Assembly (NCBI GenBank): GCA_052033585.1
Contig: JBPOJM010000007.1
Span: forward strand, 9,187-73,186
Origin: Patescibacteria group bacterium
Lineage (GTDB): Bacteria > Patescibacteriota > Patescibacteriia > 2-12-FULL-60-25
Direction: 5' to 3'
Length of the DNA: 64,000 bases
This document shows, piece after piece, positions 13,016 through 64,000 of the stretch (position 1 is the first letter of the stretch; every line of letters begins with the position of its first letter). The notes under the pieces were generated by a model. The model ran no database searches. It saw only the letters and a program-made list of their open reading frames with translations, and was not told where the DNA came from. Both the position numbers and the translations under genes were made by a program.

Positions 13016-13091
13016 TGGTGGACCCTAGCGGGATCGAACCGCTGACCTCTTCCATGCCATGGAAGCGCTCTACCAGCTGAGCTAAGAGCCC
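13016..13091 (-). tRNA. tRNA-Ala (anticodon GGC), CCA encoded
   Basis: The reverse complement GGGCTCTTAGCTCAGCTGGTAGAGCGCTTCCATGGCATGGAAGAGGTCAGCGGTTCGATCCCGCTAGGGTCCACCA folds as a cloverleaf, has the G3:U70 pair and an ATGGCAT anticodon loop. Confidence 0.9.
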
Positions 13092-25823: not shown

Positions 25824-25899
25824 TGGTGGACCGAAGGAGAGTCGAACTCCTGACCTCTGCAATGCGAATGCAGCGCTCTACCAACTGAGCTATCGGCCC
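25824..25899 (-). tRNA. tRNA-Ala (anticodon CGC), CCA encoded
   Basis: The reverse complement GGGCCGATAGCTCAGTTGGTAGAGCGCTGCATTCGCATTGCAGAGGTCAGGAGTTCGACTCTCCTTCGGTCCACCA has the G3:U70 pair and a TTCGCAT anticodon loop. Confidence 0.9.
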
Positions 25900-26166: not shown

Positions 26167-26241
26167 TGGCGTTCCCAAGTGGAATCGAACCACTATTTAG
26201 GGCTTAGGAGTCCCTCGTTCTATCCATTGAACTATGGGAAC
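26167..26241 (-). tRNA. tRNA-Arg (anticodon CCU), CCA encoded
   Basis: The reverse complement GTTCCCATAGTTCAATGGATAGAACGAGGGACTCCTAAGCCCTAAATAGTGGTTCGATTCCACTTGGGAACGCCA has a CTCCTAA anticodon loop. There is one A.G mismatch at the 31-39 pair. Confidence 0.8.
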
Positions 26242-32686: not shown

Positions 32687-32761
<75 letters not shown>

Positions 32762-57340: not shown

Positions 57341-58504
57341 TTACCATTCTTTGCATAAAATCATGTTGCCGTCCTCGTCTTCCCCTAACTGCCAACCGGT
57401 AATCGACGAGACGTCAAACACAAGCCCGATTCCCTGCACGAGTTTTTGTAAGGCGCGTGCCGAAACTCTGCCGACAACGGGCTGTTTACCGCAGGCGGGC
57501 GTCATCACAGAAAATGGCTCCGTGCTACTTCCATAGCGAATGTCACGGTCTTCGATAAAAAGAAGTTCTCCGGTACGTAAGCGAACAGGAGAGGCCATGT
57601 CTCCATCTCCACTAGTAAGCTCCGTTGCAAGCGTTCCATCCGCAAGTTGAATCACGCGCTTGGTTGTCACTCCAAAACCGGCTAACACCGCCTTCACTCG
57701 TTCTTTAGATACCGGTTCACTCTGCACGAGTTGGATGGAGTGCGGCGCTCCTGCCGCTCCAAACATGAAATGAGCTTCTTGTACATCCGGCAGAACCGCA
57801 AACTGAGGGATGGGCAGCTCCCGCAAAAGTTCATCACGCGTAATCCCACTAAGCTCAGACAAGTTGACGCTTATGTCAGCCATGCGCGGCATGAATCCGT
57901 GCACACGATGTTCAAACGGCAAAGAGGTTCGCACAGTATTCTTGTCATAAGTAAACGTGGCAACCGTAGAGGAAGTGCTGACATCGCCAAGGGCGAAAGA
58001 TCCGCTTGCCTGCTGGAGAGGGTGACGAAGCCACGTTTTTATCCCATCGAGATAACGGATCGTTCCAGCTTCTCCCGTCGGCATCTGGTCATACAAAATG
58101 CGACCTAGTCCCGCTTGTGCTTGGGGAAGTCCGGCTGATCCTCCCACCCATCTTGGCATAATAGCGAACCAGGTCCATCCATTCGGTCCCAAGCCTCCTC
58201 CCAAAACAACCGGCCAATGCGACCCGCTCTTGAGGGCGATGCGCCATGGTCCGGGCAACTGATCCTGAATCCTCGCAGGAACTTCTTCTTGTGCTGCGAA
58301 TGGACGGGTAACGATGGTGAGTGTCTGTGCACTCATCACGAACGATCGCGACAAACCCCACCAAAAAACACCCCCAAGAATTATGATACTGACCGCAACC
58401 AACGCCCAAACGAGGACACGTCGATACGCAAAACCAGGCGCCGTCCCATAGGCGAGGATCGTCGAATCTTTTGGAGTCTCAACCGTGATAAAAGATTGTT
58501 CCAC
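57341..58504 (-). CDS. hypothetical membrane-anchored protein
   Basis: 387 aa with a single N-terminal TM segment ('VLVWALVAVSIIILGGVFWW'). I recognise no motif. Confidence 0.55.
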   Translation of the reverse strand: MEQSFITVETPKDSTILAYGTAPGFAYRRVLVWALVAVSIIILGGVFWWGLSRSFVMSAQTLTIVTRPFAAQEEVPARIQDQLPGPWRIALKSGSHWPVVLGGGLGPNGWTWFAIMPRWVGGSAGLPQAQAGLGRILYDQMPTGEAGTIRYLDGIKTWLRHPLQQASGSFALGDVSTSSTVATFTYDKNTVRTSLPFEHRVHGFMPRMADISVNLSELSGITRDELLRELPIPQFAVLPDVQEAHFMFGAAGAPHSIQLVQSEPVSKERVKAVLAGFGVTTKRVIQLADGTLATELTSGDGDMASPVRLRTGELLFIEDRDIRYGSSTEPFSVMTPACGKQPVVGRVSARALQKLVQGIGLVFDVSSITGWQLGEDEDGNMILCKEW

Positions 58505-61763: not shown

Positions 61764-61934
61764 ATGTCCATTGCTCGCGAAAAAACACGACCAAAAACAG
61801 TCGTCAAAAAAAGCACTTCTTCTGCCACGAGCTATTGGGAAAAGATTCGCGGACTCTGGAAAACGAATCCGGTAAATGGTCTCGTCTACCAAAAAAAGAT
61901 CCGTTCCCAATCGGACCAACGGCTAAAAATATGA
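61764..61934 (+). CDS. VapB-like antitoxin (small, basic)
   Basis: My translation is MSIAREKTRPKTVVKKSTSSATSYWEKIRGLWKTNPVNGLVYQKKIRSQSDQRLKI. Its stop overlaps the PIN gene start (ATGA). Confidence 0.6.
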   Translation: MSIAREKTRPKTVVKKSTSSATSYWEKIRGLWKTNPVNGLVYQKKIRSQSDQRLKI

Positions 61935-62299
61935 TCGTACTCGATACGAATATTTTAATCGCCTACCTTAAAGGAGAAAAAACTGTAACGGACTTTATCG
62001 ACTTGGCTCGTCTGCAAGAAGAGCGTTTTTGTGTTTCCGCGGTGAGTGCTGTTGAACTTCTCGCATTTCCAAAATTACCACCAAGCCAAGGCCTCCTCAT
62101 AAGAAAATGGCTACAAGAAAATATGTTGATAGTTGACCTAAATACGTCACTCGCCCTTGAGGCGGCAGAGGTATGTCGCGCCTATCGTTTAAAAACAGCC
62201 GACGGAATCATCGCTGCCACAGCTCTTAGCCTACGCGCTTCACTCATGACACGCGACAAAGATTTTCGACGGGTAAAAGGATTGAAAATAATTCAGTAG
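61931..62299 (+). CDS. vapC: PIN-domain toxin (VapC-like)
   Basis: Inside track ORF 61835..62299. 'MIVLDTNILIAYL', '...SAVSAVELL...', 'ADGIIAATAL' and 'LMTRDKDF' carry the PIN acidic residues. Confidence 0.85.
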   Translation: MIVLDTNILIAYLKGEKTVTDFIDLARLQEERFCVSAVSAVELLAFPKLPPSQGLLIRKWLQENMLIVDLNTSLALEAAEVCRAYRLKTADGIIAATALSLRASLMTRDKDFRRVKGLKIIQ

Positions 62300-62427
62300 C
62301 AAGGAGCGTTTAGCTAAAACGTCAAAACCCCGCGCCAGGTCGTACACGTTTCAGTGTGTACACCCAGCGCGAGGCCAGTCAGTTCCGAGTGAGAAGATGC
62401 AGCTCAGGATTAGCTCTGTGCAGCGTT

Positions 62428-62509
62428 CTCCCCTTCACATTCCTCTTTCGAGAAACACGCAGGGGGGAGAAGGACAGTCAAACGGACACGTCCTTGTCAG
62501 AGGTGGGGG
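62428..62509 (-). promoter_or_regulatory. cassette leader copy L1 (no intact ORF follows)
   Basis: The minus strand reads ...ctgacaaggacgtgtccgtttgactgtccttctcccccctgcgtgtttctcgaaagaggaatgtgaaggggagaa. It is homologous to L2 and L3 and starts right after the stop of the 62510 gene. Confidence 0.6.
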
Positions 62510-63037
62510 TCAGTTGGGGAAGGGGGTGTCGGCGTTCGGCTGGGGCCAGTCGAGCTCACCCAGGATGATCTCGTCGCCGAGCAGGCTCGAACGCAGCTTG
62601 AAGATCACGCCCATGGCCTGCATGTCCAGGCCGAAGGTCAGGACTTCGCAGTACGCCGGCGACGGCGTGTCTCTGAGATCCTGCGTGTGGTCCGAGGTCT
62701 CCTTCTGGAACGCGCCTGCGACGAAGTTCGCGAAGGCGAGGAGTTCGACCGCGTCGTCGCTGTAGATGAGTAGATCGCACGCGGTCTCCCGCGTCACGAT
62801 TTCCTCCATCCTGGCGAGACGGGAGGCATCATCACCCCCCATCCCCTCCAGGCCGTAGGGCTGCAGGGGAGACACTCGCTCGAGGTCGCCTCCGGCCGCC
62901 ACCATGGCCTTCGCCCCATCTTCAGCGAGAACGAAGTGGATGTCCTTCAGGTGGAGGGTGAGAAAATCGACAATTTTCGGAATCAAGGCGGTCTCCTTTG
63001 TGATGGCCACATTGGCCGTTGAAGCACGTGAGCTCAT
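62510..63037 (-). CDS. cassette protein P2 (paralog of P1 and probably P3), function unknown
   Basis: Track ORF 62510..63043. The ATG at 63037 corresponds to the conserved leader ATG. 'ACDLLIYSDDAVELLAFANFVAGAF' aligns with P1 'ACVVIYDTHLVKLAEFAQYVAAS'. Confidence 0.65.
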   Translation of the reverse strand: MSSRASTANVAITKETALIPKIVDFLTLHLKDIHFVLAEDGAKAMVAAGGDLERVSPLQPYGLEGMGGDDASRLARMEEIVTRETACDLLIYSDDAVELLAFANFVAGAFQKETSDHTQDLRDTPSPAYCEVLTFGLDMQAMGVIFKLRSSLLGDEIILGELDWPQPNADTPFPN

Positions 63038-63133
63038 GCTCACCCCTTCACATTCCTCTTTCGAGAAACACGCAGGGGAGAGAAGGACAGCGTAACAGCA
63101 TGTCCTTGAGAGAGGTGAGGCAGGTCGTATGCA
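63038..63133 (-). promoter_or_regulatory. cassette leader copy L2
   Basis: The minus strand reads ...caaggacatgctgttacgctgtccttctctcccctgcgtgtttctcgaaagaggaatgtgaaggggtgagcATG. It fills the whole gap between the P1 stop and the P2 start. Confidence 0.65.
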
Positions 63134-63520
63134 TCATTCTGATAAGATAGCGGTCTCGATTTGGAGCTTCGCCTGGCCATCGCAGAGCATCAGCGCGAGC
63201 ACGCTGAACGGCCCCAGCTCCAGCGGCTGCCCCGTACTGTCCGACGCGCAGCAGCTCGCGGCCACGTACTGCGCGAATTCTGCGAGCTTCACGAGGTGCG
63301 TATCGTAGATCACGACACAGGCCCCGTCAGAAGCGGGGAGCAGCCGCTCCAACTCCATCAGGGCGGCGGCGTGATCAGCCCCCATGCGGGTCAGCGGATA
63401 AGGCCGCACCTCCCAGAGATTTTGCTCGTGCCACCAGAGTACTTCCATGACCTGATCGGCGGTATCGACCGCCAAGAACCAGAGCCCGGGGCCTTTGGCA
63501 AGATAGTCGCGGATGTTCAT
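63134..63520 (-). CDS. cassette protein P1, function unknown
   Basis: Track ORF of 128 aa with SD ggaggaagggg. It aligns with P2 over about 90 aa (NIRDYL/KIVDFL ... LWEVRPYPL/LERVSPLQP ...). Confidence 0.65.
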   Translation of the reverse strand: MNIRDYLAKGPGLWFLAVDTADQVMEVLWWHEQNLWEVRPYPLTRMGADHAAALMELERLLPASDGACVVIYDTHLVKLAEFAQYVAASCCASDSTGQPLELGPFSVLALMLCDGQAKLQIETAILSE

Positions 63521-63665
63521 GATCCCCTTCCTCCATTGTTGTGGCCACGTAGGCCGTTGATGTTGGTAAGCTCATGCTCACCCCTTCATATTCCTCTTTC
63601 GAGAAACACGCAGGGGAGAGAAGGACAGCGTAACAGCATGTCCTTGTCAGAGGGGAGGAAGTCGG
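63521..63665 (-). promoter_or_regulatory. cassette leader copy L3 plus out-of-frame remnant of the conserved N-terminal codons
   Basis: Same leader as L2. The conserved ATG (63578-63576) opens 'MSLPTSTAYVATTMEEGD', homologous to the P2 N-terminus 'MSSRASTANVAITKE' but in a different frame from P1. Confidence 0.6.
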
Positions 63666-64000
63666 TCACCGGGAGCTGAGCTCGAGGGCGCCGTCCTTGA
63701 GGCGCAGGTACCACGCCTGACCCCGGCGCATCGGCTCCTCGCGCGTGGGGCTGTTCGCGGTCATGTCGTAGCCGAACGTCTTGGCCATGTCAGCGATGGC
63801 CCAGATCAGCTCGTGGAGCTGCTTGGGATCGCTGTGGTACACGAGGGTGCGTTCGTGCAGCGAGCTTGCTGCCGGTGCACGTGCAGTGAGCGTTCCGGCC
63901 AGCCCCTCCGTTCCGAGGAACGCGACTGTGCAGCTCTGCGGCGTGCCCGTTACCGCGATGAAGGTGCTGAGGGCGCGGCCAAGCGGGTCGGTCACGAGGA
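63666..64000 (-). CDS. cassette protein P3 (5' end possibly beyond the window)
   Basis: Track ORF 63666..63995 with a GTG start. 'RTLVYHSDPKQLHELIWAIADMA' resembles the P1/P2 'C..IY....V.L.EF..YVA' block. The frame is open to the window edge. Confidence 0.5.
   Translation of the reverse strand, partial: LVTDPLGRALSTFIAVTGTPQSCTVAFLGTEGLAGTLTARAPAASSLHERTLVYHSDPKQLHELIWAIADMAKTFGYDMTANSPTREEPMRRGQAWYLRLKDGALELSSR

What the first reader, a model, noticed from the sequence alone, without database searches (positions are those of the whole stretch)
62428..64000. Tandem array of diverged paralogous small genes, each preceded by the same ~85-nt leader
On the minus strand the order is P3, L3, P1, L2, P2, L1 and then a degenerate end. 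The leaders start directly after each stop codon and run to the next ATG. They are nearly identical (63577-63665, 63038-63133, 62428-62509), while the proteins are strongly diverged paralogs. P1 and P2 align over about 90 aa, for example 'LWEVRPYPLTRMGADHAAALMELERLLPASDGACVVIYDTHLVKLAEFAQYVAA' against 'LERVSPLQPYGLEGMGGDDASRLARMEEIVTRETACDLLIYSDDAVELLAFANFVAG'. P3 shares the 'LVYHSD..QLHELIWAIADMA' block. Conserved non-coding units combined with rapidly diverging coding units is the pattern of immunity-gene or antigenic-variation type arrays. The array continues beyond the window edge. I recognise no known family.
Basis: seen in the sequence. Interest (0 to 1): 0.7.

Follow-up and report, generated by a model that had tools for sequence, protein, structure and literature searches.

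The report
Variable ORFan operon with repeated RNA hairpins
A narrow lineage of Patescibacteria carries a strain-variable operon of fast-evolving genes of unknown function in which each small gene is followed (not preceded) by the same ~85-nt two-hairpin RNA element. This is a real, undescribed RNA motif, but what it and the proteins do remains inferred.

Summary
Three 94-96 % identical ~85-nt units lie on the minus strand between P3, P1 and P2 and after P2. P1 and P2 are significant paralogs; P3's relationship to them is only suggestive.

The interpretation needs correcting. Sister contigs from five related Patescibacteria lineages show one sigma-70 promoter and a separate conserved 5' UTR before P3. 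The first gene has no unit upstream, and the last unit has no gene downstream. So the unit is a 3' trailer, not a leader.

The unit folds into a 7-bp hairpin abutting a 20-bp hairpin, with compensatory changes and G-U pairs on the sense strand. In terminal copies of other strains the 20-bp hairpin is followed by a U-tract and reads as the operon terminator.

Gene content differs between strains: P1 only here, P4/P5/P6 elsewhere, P3 mosaic. Array genes evolve at dN/dS 0.3-0.9, against 0.01-0.03 for neighbouring yifB.

No integrase, toxin, Pfam, PADLOC, PHROG, PDB or Rfam match was found. A correct pattern scan found the unit only in this array, in 2 of 185,579 species genomes.

Best reading: a terminator-derived 3' RNA module co-duplicated with its gene, now an intercistronic processing/stability element and a substrate for unequal recombination.

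The parts
63669..64000 (-). P3, 3' 110 codons of the first cistron (about 131-132 aa in sister strains). The start lies about 70 nt beyond the window. Stop codon at 63666-63668.
   Evidence: ORF. Orthologs in L001, L013, L016 and L019 are aligned. The gene is mosaic: 64000-63851 is about 63 % identical to L001, while 63790-63551 is 99.6 % identical.
63577..63660 (-). 3' RNA module, copy 3 (after P3). It has a conserved CCUCUGAC flank, hairpin H1 at 63645-63621 (7 bp) and hairpin H2 at 63620-63577 (20 bp, GAAA loop).
   Evidence: Repeat family. Fold gives -38.8 kcal/mol, z = -4.4. Covariance model hit of 106.6 bits. Pair counts.
63521..63576 (-). 5' UTR of P1, holding the motif AUCAACGGCC-N5-GGCCA (63561-63542) and the RBS GGAGGAAGGGG.
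   Evidence: Read. The same motif lies before the start of P3 in sister strains and of P2 and P5.
63134..63520 (-). P1, 128 aa, ORFan. Among the strains seen it occurs only in this strain's assembly.
   Evidence: ORF. Cluster P0004 has 1 member on 1 contig. Absent from L001, L013 and L019; L016 has an unresolved run of N inside its array. Paralog of P2 at E = 1e-7. AF2 model is an alpha/beta fold with pLDDT 65.6.
63039..63122 (-). 3' RNA module, copy 2 (after P1). H1 at 63107-63083, H2 at 63082-63039.
   Evidence: Covariance model hit of 100.2 bits.
62987..63038 (-). 5' UTR of P2, holding UUCAACGGCC-N5-GGCCA (63022-63003) and the RBS AAGGAGA.
   Evidence: Read. In L001 this junction equals the copy-3 side up to GUGGCCA and the copy-2 side after it. 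That is the footprint of a P1 gain or loss.
62510..62986 (-). P2, about 158 aa from the TTG start at 62986 (a gene caller used an upstream ATG, giving 175 aa).
   Evidence: 99 % identical to P0001. dS to the L001 copy is 0.018, against 0.139 for yifB.
62426..62510 (-). 3' RNA module, copy 1 (after P2), with no gene downstream. H1 variant at 62495-62470 (closing pair G-U), H2 at 62469-62426.
   Evidence: Covariance model hit of 95 bits.
62390..62425 (-). Remnant of the 5' UTR that precedes the membrane-protein gene P4 in other strains. P4 is deleted here.
   Evidence: Compared by eye with L001 10612-10680 and L019 3181-3258. blastn colinearity with L019 resumes at 62390.
62322..62376 (-). Intrinsic terminator of the operon: a long GC-rich hairpin followed by UUUUGACGUUUU. 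The same terminator follows P4 in L016 and L019.
   Evidence: Fold gives -51.5 kcal/mol, z = -5.05. Orthologous sequence seen.
61764..62299 (+). Convergent vapBC-like toxin-antitoxin pair (56-aa ORF plus PIN-domain protein) in the variable slot between the array and yifB. It is not part of the operon.
   Evidence: Pfam PIN, E = 1.3e-21. Other strains carry a HicA-like pair or other small genes in this slot.

Best explanation
The locus is the 3' part of an accessory operon confined to a narrow lineage of Patescibacteria.

Shown:
- One sigma-70 promoter and a conserved structured 5' UTR drive P3.
- P3 is followed by a strain-specific set of further small cytoplasmic alpha/beta ORFan genes (P1, P2, P5, P6).
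- In most strains a two-TM membrane-anchored protein, P4, also follows.
- Each P3-type cistron carries the same ~85-nt RNA module 13-26 nt after its stop codon (seven cases read).
- The module is a 7-bp hairpin H1 directly abutting a 20-bp hairpin H2.

Inferred:
- The module is the gene's own terminator-type 3' end and was duplicated together with the gene and its short 5' UTR motif.
- In the last position H2 keeps a U-tract and terminates the operon.
- In internal positions the U-tract is absent, so RNA polymerase reads through.
- There the conserved hairpins act at the RNA level as an intercistronic processing or stability signal. A 20-bp helix is a plausible RNase III-type substrate or 3'-exonuclease block.
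- The repeated modules and UTR motifs also supply the homology for unequal crossing-over and for exchange with diverged alleles. This generates the observed gain, loss and mosaicism of cistrons.
- The fast evolution, strain variability and neighbouring toxin-antitoxin slot suggest that the proteins serve a conflict-type function (defence, immunity or host interaction). Nothing identifies which.
For: Position:
- In L001, L013, L016 and L019 the first gene P3 has no module upstream. It has a promoter (TTGACT-17-TATTAT) and a different conserved UTR.
- The last module has no gene downstream in the window, L001 and L013; in L026 and L029 the contig starts inside such a module, with only the variable slot and yifB after it.
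- No promoter-like site lies inside the array.

Structure:
- Across 11 distinct copies, 94.3 % of pair cells are paired, against 50-63 % when partners are slid.
- Five pairs show changes on both sides (3 of 500 shuffles reach this).
- The covariation score is 0.145 against 0.087 +/- 0.011.
- Several G-U pairs make the fold strand-specific. The covariance model scores 93-107 bits on the sense strand and 15-29 bits on the antisense strand, though it was built from sense copies.

Terminator link:
- The terminal copies in L001, L013, L026 and L029 have UUUUGUUUU or U7 directly after H2. The L001 copy is flagged as a terminator with 20 pairs.
- Eight internal copies have no U-tract.

Constraint:
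- Modules are 91-95 % identical between the window and L013, where yifB DNA is 87 % identical with pS of about 0.43.

Recombination:
- The L001 P3-P2 junction is a chimera of window copies 3 and 2.
- P3 switches from about 63 % to 99.6 % identity.
- P2 dS is 0.018, against 0.139 for yifB.
- P4 and P5 remnants are visible.
- Assemblies of at least five other strains break inside the module.

Fast evolution: P3 dN/dS is 0.31-0.78 and P4 0.58-0.89, against 0.01-0.03 for yifB.
Against: - There are no expression, end-mapping or cleavage data. Read-through, processing and stabilisation are all inferred.
- Terminator hairpins normally do not keep their sequence and loops this well, so a sequence-specific partner (protein or RNA) may be involved that this model does not name.
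- Covariation rests on 11 related copies from about five lineages. Most pairs never vary.
- The single mapped P1 junction falls in a 7-nt identity block (GUGGCCA), not in the long identical core where RecA-type crossovers would be expected. This fits site-specific exchange at least as well.
- Homology of P3, P5 and P6 with P1/P2 is statistically weak. 'Co-duplication of gene plus module' is therefore firmly supported only for P1/P2.
- The window strain's own upstream sequence, beyond 64000, could not be read.
Confidence: 0.5

Rival explanations
1. An integron-like or rAID-like cassette system. In this reading the conserved unit, or the GGCC-N5-GGCCA motif next to it, is a site-specific recombination site at which gene cassettes are captured, excised and shuffled by a recombinase encoded elsewhere.
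For: - Gene content differs between close strains, with boundaries in the inter-gene units.
- The only precisely mapped junction lies in a 7-nt block, GUGGCCA, inside a small inverted repeat and not in the long identical core.
- There is a single promoter at the head of the array.
- The array is GC-richer (0.56-0.62) than the window average of about 0.50.
- rAID-1 arrays have comparable repetitive intergenic sequences (bioRxiv 10.1101/471110).
Against: - No tyrosine or serine recombinase flanks the array in any of five lineages. The flanks are rpoB plus an ncRNA on one side and a toxin-antitoxin slot plus yifB on the other.
- No GTTRRRY/RYYYAAC boxes occur on either strand of the unit (read).
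- The fold is two separate hairpins with G-U pairs on the sense strand, not one long imperfect bottom-strand hairpin.
- The genes are at least partly paralogs rather than unrelated cassettes.
- The unit occurs only at this locus.
- Terminal copies are terminators.
Confidence: 0.12
2. A cis-regulatory 5' leader. Each copy would be a riboswitch, protein-binding operator or attenuator controlling the gene that follows it.
For: - The RNA structure is conserved with covariation.
- Copies 2 and 3 stay similar over 131 nt, up to the RBS.
- SD-like purine runs are sequestered in the 3' arm of H2 (read).
Against: - The first gene lacks the unit, and the last unit has no gene after it.
- The distance to the next start varies from 52 to 125 nt and runs through unrelated spacers before P4 and P5.
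- The distance from the preceding stop is short: 13-26 nt in seven of eight cases read.
- No Rfam family matches, even at E <= 10.
Confidence: 0.12
3. Functionless tandem-duplication spacers kept alike by gene conversion, with recent horizontal spread of the whole array. In this reading the hairpins are incidental.
For: - The L013 terminal copy has an H2 nearly identical to the internal copies, whereas its L001 ortholog is diverged. This suggests intra-array conversion.
- P2 and half of P3 were clearly exchanged recently between lineages.
Against: - Compensatory double changes keep both helices.
- Variant H2 copies (L019, L013_b, L026) differ at many positions yet stay fully paired, and all copies keep the 0-nt H1/H2 junction.
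- Conservation exceeds that of adjacent coding DNA across lineages with yifB dS of about 0.6.
Confidence: 0.1
4. The units are RNA partners of the array's own proteins. Examples would be processed RNA antitoxin-like repeats or autoregulatory operators bound by P3-family proteins. The array would then be a self-contained RNA-protein conflict system.
For: - The loops and flanks are conserved at the sequence level beyond what a plain hairpin needs.
- The unit is strictly associated with P3-family genes and absent directly after P4 in the minimal arrays.
Against: - The proteins show no nuclease or RNA-binding signature.
- AF2 models are of low confidence and have no fold match.
- The idea is purely speculative.
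Confidence: 0.06

Closest known systems
Intercistronic hairpin processing and stability elements. Examples are the phage T7 early-mRNA RNase III sites between genes, the Rhodobacter puf operon intercistronic hairpins and REP/BIME elements inside operons (my own knowledge of the literature, not tested here).
   Same: Structured hairpins lie just after cistrons inside one polycistronic unit. The 20-bp helix H2 is long enough for RNase III-type recognition. The last copy coincides with the transcript's 3' end.
   Different: The sequence is unrelated to any described element (no Rfam hit). The element occurs only in this one operon rather than genome-wide like REP. It is tied to one fast-evolving gene family. 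Processing has not been shown.
Intrinsic (Rho-independent) terminators
   Same: Terminal copies in L001, L013, L026 and L029 are a GC-rich 20-bp hairpin followed directly by a U-tract. The L001 copy is called a terminator by the consensus scan.
   Different: All three window copies and all internal copies lack the U-tract. The sequence is conserved far more than terminators usually are. An extra abutting hairpin H1 and a conserved 5' flank are present.
Chromosomal integron cassette arrays (attC sites, for example Vibrio VCRs)
   Same: There is an array of co-directional short genes under a head promoter. Each gene is followed by a conserved, structured ~85-nt unit. Gene content varies between strains.
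   Different: There is no intI. The unit has no R'/R'' boxes and does not form a single bottom-strand hairpin. The genes are related paralogs. The array holds only 2-4 genes.
Recombinase-associated acquired interbacterial defence arrays (rAID-1) of Bacteroidales (Ross et al., bioRxiv 10.1101/471110)
   Same: Co-directional small genes with repetitive intergenic sequences, atypical GC, rapid divergence and strain variability.
   Different: The defining 5' XerD-like recombinase is absent. No gene matches an immunity family. The phylum is different. No toxin context is present.

Membership tests
Integron gene-cassette array | An adjacent intI tyrosine-recombinase gene with attI at the head of the array | tested here: not met
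   The head of the array in L001, L013, L016, L019 and L032 is a promoter, a 5' UTR, an unknown ncRNA and rpoB. No recombinase Pfam hit appears among the called neighbours. The window's own upstream is unread.
Integron gene-cassette array | attC with inverse core RYYYAAC and core GTTRRRY at its ends | tested here: not met
   Reading both strands of all 11 unit variants gives only GTTACGC and GTTTCTC. Neither fits GTTRRRY.
Integron gene-cassette array | A single long imperfect hairpin formed by the bottom DNA strand, with extrahelical bases | tested here: not met
   The unit forms two independent hairpins (7 bp and 20 bp) on the sense strand, with several G-U pairs that would be C-A mismatches on the other strand.
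rAID-1 (recombinase-associated acquired interbacterial defence) | [quoted passage not shown] | tested here: not met
   No recombinase lies 5' of the array in any lineage.
rAID-1 (recombinase-associated acquired interbacterial defence) | At least 2 co-directional downstream genes with repetitive intergenic sequence and skewed GC | tested here: met
   There are three co-directional genes and three repeats. GC is 0.56-0.62, against about 0.50 for the window. The skew is upward, not downward as in Bacteroidales.
rAID-1 (recombinase-associated acquired interbacterial defence) | Genes homologous to known immunity families | tested here: not met
   Pfam, PADLOC, PHROG and PDB-profile searches returned nothing at or above a curated threshold or significance level.
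Intrinsic terminator | A GC-rich hairpin immediately followed by a U-tract | tested here: not met
   For the three window copies, H2 is followed by CAUGAGC (copies 2 and 3) or CGCUGCA (copy 1), with no U-tract. The feature is met only for the terminal copies of other strains and for the separate hairpin at 62322-62376.
Riboswitch or other described cis-regulatory RNA (Rfam 15) | A match to a curated covariance model | tested here: not met
   There are no gathering-score hits apart from tRNAs. At E <= 10 only noise appears, at 14-19 bits.
Riboswitch or other described cis-regulatory RNA (Rfam 15) | Lies upstream of every regulated gene | tested here: not met
   The first cistron has no copy, and the last copy has no gene after it.
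REP/BIME-type dispersed intergenic palindromes | Many copies dispersed over the genome | tested here: not met
   The covariance model finds copies only in the array, in 203 kb plus 56 kb of related DNA. In the species-representative genome JAGOUY01 the exact H1 pattern occurs only on this contig, 3 times.
RNase III processing site | About two turns (20 bp or more) of double-stranded RNA | tested here: met
   H2 is 20 bp, perfect in the L019 variant.
RNase III processing site | Endonucleolytic cleavage of the transcript at the helix | not testable with these tools
   This needs RNA end mapping or an in vitro cleavage assay.

The most novel reading that the evidence does not exclude
The two-hairpin unit, together with the GGCC-N5-GGCCA motif, is the recognition site of an integrase-less cassette-exchange mechanism. 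That mechanism might use a distant recombinase or the unknown, near-invariant ~400-nt ncRNA encoded just upstream of the operon. Candidate-phyla bacteria would use it to shuffle and diversify a private family of conflict proteins. This would be a new kind of gene-cassette system.
Probability: 0.07. Interest if true: 0.85.

Novelty: new variant of a known kind. Interest (0 to 1): 0.5.

Why it matters
If the reading is right, this is an undescribed structured RNA motif with a clear genomic grammar: it follows every copy of one fast-evolving gene family and doubles as the operon terminator. The host group, Patescibacteria/CPR, has almost no characterised gene regulation or accessory functions.

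The locus gives a compact natural example of how a gene, its 5' UTR motif and its 3' RNA module duplicate as a unit and then drive strain-level gene gain, loss and mosaicism. It also explains why assemblies of this lineage break here.

The protein families (P1/P2/P3/P5/P6 and P4) have no homologs outside the lineage among 1.84 billion cluster representatives. They show the evolutionary signature of conflict genes, so they are candidates for new defence or host-interaction functions in episymbiotic bacteria.

The narrow distribution and the lack of functional data limit the immediate impact.

Tried and rejected
1. My first collection scans used a mistyped pattern: GTCCTTCTCNCCCCTNNNNNGTTTCTC has one N too many. 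It could not match the element itself. The zero result and the single hit (L007, a coding region of an unrelated contig) are uninformative, and the one metagenome scan was wasted.
2. The correct pattern on genome contigs gave the two related MAG contigs plus L025. L025 is a chance match inside a gene of an Anaerolineae contig, at 13 bits.
3. Viral contigs gave 0 hits with two patterns. blastn against phage and plasmid collections gave no match.
4. Rfam gave nothing for the units or for the upstream region.
5. Protein annotation failed throughout:
   - Pfam, PADLOC and PHROGs gave no match reaching a curated threshold.
   - A profile search against PDB sequences gave 0 hits.
   - A profile search against 1.84 billion representatives returned the family's own four clusters and two borderline hits at E = 3-5e-4 that I did not examine and take to be chance. 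The word-indexed search returned only those four clusters.
   - The P4 profile likewise returned only relatives of P4 from the same set of assemblies.
6. AlphaFold2 with 5-row alignments gave pLDDT 63-66. Foldseek against PDB gave best E-values of 0.16-0.34, generic alpha/beta matches that I treat as meaningless.
7. Exact look-ups of P1 and P2 as translated from the window found nothing. The source contig (76,655 bp, NCBI) is not indexed, so the sequence beyond base 64000 could not be read.
8. A coding reading of the unit was rejected. The 17-aa sORF MLLRCPSLPCVFLERGM in canonical copies, and the apparent 'MSMS..' N-terminal extension, do not hold up. The ATG is lost in variant copies, the frame relative to the downstream gene differs between copies 2 and 3, and L013 has an in-frame stop.
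9. An attC reading was rejected (see the membership test).
Full report
OBSERVATION

On the minus strand the window ends with this order:
- P3 (partial, 63669-64000)
- unit 3
- P1 (63134-63520)
- unit 2
- P2 (62510-62986)
- unit 1
- a terminator

These features were read. The three units are 94-96 % identical over 51 nt, and units 2 and 3 are 89 % identical over 131 nt. A 38-nt core matches three times with at most 1 mismatch, against 0 expected. No other copy exists in the 64-kb window.

P1 and P2 are significant paralogs: 30 % identity over 57 aa, E = 1e-7. P3 is not significantly similar to either by BLASTP. A five-ortholog P3 profile against a P1/P2/P5 profile reaches only hhalign E = 0.03 on the 'LVYHSD..L.EL.W' block. 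P5 against P3 gives E = 0.003-0.026, and P6 against the family gives 0.035.

So the repeat is real and far beyond chance. 'Paralogous' is proven only for P1/P2.

ORGANISM AND RELATIVES

The neighbouring YifB protein belongs to a 90 % cluster that includes a protein named 'Patescibacteria group bacterium'. The source is a 76,655-bp NCBI contig that the look-up tool does not index.

Exact-protein look-ups through P2, P5, YifB variants and P4 retrieved the same locus from several other lineages. Their yifB dS to the window is 0.14 for L001 and 0.64-0.68 for L013, L016 and L019.

ANATOMY ACROSS STRAINS

All strains share this order:
- rpoC-rpoB, divergently transcribed
- about 1 kb of highly conserved non-coding DNA
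- the promoter TTGACT-17-TATTAT
- a conserved 5' UTR
- P3

After P3 the strains differ:
- Window: P3 - unit - P1 - unit - P2 - unit - [remnant of the P4 5' UTR] - terminator.
- L001: P3 - unit - P2 - unit - P4 (258 aa, two TM helices) - unit - P5 (149 aa) - unit plus U-tract.
- L013 and L032: P3 - unit - P6 (128 aa) - unit - P4 (225 aa) - [P5 3' remnant] - unit plus U-tract.
- L019: P3 - unit - P4 - terminator.
- L016: P3 - unit - [assembly gap] - P4 - terminator.

A consensus scan finds a single promoter for the array and none inside it. It flags H2 plus UUUUGUUUU of the last L001 unit as a terminator with 20 pairs.

Between the array and yifB lies a variable slot. It holds a vapBC-like pair (window, L019), a HicA-like pair (L029; the same 108-aa gene is in L013) or other small genes.

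No integrase, transposase or toxin gene flanks the array in any lineage.

LEADER OR TRAILER

Four facts bear on this:
- The first cistron never has a unit upstream.
- The last unit never has a gene downstream.
- The unit begins 13-26 nt after the preceding stop codon in seven cases; after P4 of L001 the distance is 41 nt. That 41-nt stretch may be the remnant of another deleted family gene.
- The distance from the unit to the next start is 52-125 nt and runs through unrelated spacers before P4 and P5.

In the minimal arrays (L019; L016 as far as its assembly gap allows) the single unit seen follows P3, and P4 has none directly after it. The unit therefore belongs to the 3' end of P3-type genes.

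Separately, a short 5' UTR motif, AUCAAC(G/U)GGCC-N5-GGCCA, lies about 20-25 nt before the start of P3, P1, P2 and P5. The likely duplication unit is therefore [UTR motif - gene - 3' module].

STRUCTURE OF THE UNIT

Each copy folds into H1 (AAGGACA/UGUCCUU, 7 bp) directly abutting H2 (20 bp, GAAA loop in the canonical form). Fold energies are -34.5 to -39.1 kcal/mol, with z-scores of -2.2 to -4.4.

On 11 distinct copies:
- 94.3 % of pair cells are standard pairs, against 50-63 % when partners are slid by 1-3 columns.
- Five pairs have changes on both sides (3 of 500 shuffles reach this).
- The covariation score is 0.145, against 0.087 +/- 0.011.

Examples of compensatory change are the H1 closing pair A-U, G-U and G-C, and C-G to U-A at two H2 positions. 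The L019 variant is a perfect 20-bp helix with a different loop. Several G-U pairs make the fold specific to the sense strand, which points to RNA rather than a DNA cruciform.

Rfam 15 has no match.

Terminal copies in L001, L013, L026 and L029 carry a U-tract directly after H2. No internal copy does.

CONSTRAINT AND DISTRIBUTION

Units are 91-95 % identical between the window and L013, where yifB DNA is 87 % identical and pS is about 0.43.

The covariance model R1 finds the unit only in the array, in about 260 kb of related DNA. It also shows that contigs of at least five further strains begin inside a unit, which means assemblies break there.

A correct pattern scan of 185,579 species-representative genomes found the unit in only two genomes, both at this locus, plus one chance hit. 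One of the two contigs is binned as 'Gammaproteobacteria'. It shares this locus's gene order and a yifB 88 % identical in DNA, so it is probably mis-binned.

My earlier scans used a mistyped pattern and are void. As a result, the distribution in metagenomes remains untested.

EVOLUTION OF THE GENES

| Gene | dN/dS | dN |
|---|---|---|
| yifB | 0.01-0.03 | 0.002-0.02 |
| P3 | 0.31-0.78 | 0.16-0.9 |
| P4 | 0.58-0.89 | 0.57-0.97 |

These are relaxed or diversifying rates. Pairwise dN/dS below 1 does not prove positive selection.

Recombination is evident in four ways:
- The window P3 is about 63 % identical to L001 over 64000-63851 but 99.6 % identical over 63790-63551.
- P2 has dS 0.018 between the window and L001, against 0.139 for yifB.
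- The L001 P3-P2 junction equals window unit 3 up to GUGGCCA and window unit 2 afterwards. This is the footprint of a P1 gain or loss.
- Remnants mark the deletion of P4 in the window and of P5 in L013.

WHAT THE PROTEINS ARE

The proteins could not be assigned to any known family.
- Pfam, PADLOC, PHROG and PDB-profile searches gave nothing reaching a curated threshold or significance level.
- A profile search of 1.84 billion representatives returned the family's own four clusters, plus two borderline hits at E = 3-5e-4 that were not examined. The word-indexed search returned only the four clusters.
- P4 is equally restricted.
- AF2 models are alpha/beta with a C-terminal beta-hairpin, at pLDDT 63-66.
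- Foldseek finds nothing significant.
- From the positive-inside rule applied to the sequence, P4 has two TM helices with both ends predicted cytoplasmic. This is an inference.

MECHANISM (shown versus inferred)

Shown:
- a single-promoter operon
- a conserved sense-strand two-hairpin module after each P3-type cistron
- terminator configuration in terminal copies
- strain-level gain, loss and mosaicism
- fast protein evolution
- confinement to one lineage and one locus

Inferred:
- The module is a terminator-derived 3' end co-duplicated with its gene.
- Internal copies are read through and act as intercistronic processing or stability signals.
- The repeats mediate unequal recombination.

The conflict-type role of the proteins is a guess, based on evolutionary signature and context.

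COMPARISON WITH KNOWN SYSTEMS

The locus works most like intercistronic hairpin elements and terminators. It looks superficially like integron or rAID-1 arrays, but it fails their defining tests: no recombinase, no attC boxes and no immunity homology. I file it as a new variant of a known kind, namely a repeated operon-internal RNA hairpin module in a variable gene array.

A site-specific cassette mechanism is not excluded. The one mapped junction lies in a 7-nt block, not in the long identical core.

VERDICT

The feature is real and undescribed. It is moderately interesting because of the new RNA motif, the ORFan families and the CPR context. Interest 0.5.

Noticed in passing
L001 8888-9275; L013 6890-7295; L016 8043-8445; L019 1996-2460. 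In the source contig this would lie just beyond window base 64000.: A ~390-460-nt non-coding gene lies between rpoB and the array. It has its own promoter (TTGACA-17-TATGCT/TATAGT) and terminator. It is almost invariant across lineages whose yifB synonymous sites differ by about 43 %. The predicted structure has 132 pairs, 6 of them with compensatory changes, and one variable loop carries an insertion in L019. There is no Rfam match at E <= 10, so it is an unidentified conserved structured RNA.
   Followed up: partly
L001 9396-9511 and orthologous stretches in L013, L016 and L019: The true 5' UTR of the operon is about 120 nt. It contains a near-invariant hairpin (GUCCGAAAUGG...CCGUUUCGGAC; one of four lineages has a single broken pair) and a GGCC-N5-GGCC mini-hairpin next to the RBS. 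There is no covariation in the UTR hairpins and no Rfam hit. It is a possible regulatory leader.
   Followed up: partly
window 61764-62299 (+): A vapB-like 56-aa ORF overlaps a PIN-domain (VapC) gene (Pfam E = 1.3e-21), convergent with the array. The slot between the array and yifB holds different small modules in different strains (a HicA-like pair in L029, others elsewhere), so it is a small variable islet.
   Followed up: partly
L024 (CAZIQG010000006.1): This contig is deposited under an 'uncultured Gammaproteobacteria' MAG, yet it shares this locus's gene order and a yifB 88 % identical in DNA with the window. It is probably mis-binned.
   Followed up: no
L012, L014, L015, L018, L026-L029 (contig starts); L016 9123-9222 (run of N): Short-read assemblies of many strains end or are gapped exactly inside the repeated unit. 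The array is therefore systematically under-assembled in public MAGs, and its true diversity is probably larger than seen here.
   Followed up: partly
window 1-64000: GC skew on the + strand is persistently negative (cumulative -11 over 64 kb), and the genes examined at the 3' end (57.3-64 kb) lie mostly on the minus strand. There are four tRNA genes, at 13019-13091, 25827-25899, 26170-26241 and 32690-32761 (all on the minus strand). The array region is GC-richer (0.56-0.62) than the rest (about 0.50).
   Followed up: no
window 57341-58504 (-): A 387-aa ORF with no Pfam match is conserved in position next to the LysM/M23 peptidase gene in all related contigs. It is another lineage-specific protein of unknown function.
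   Followed up: no
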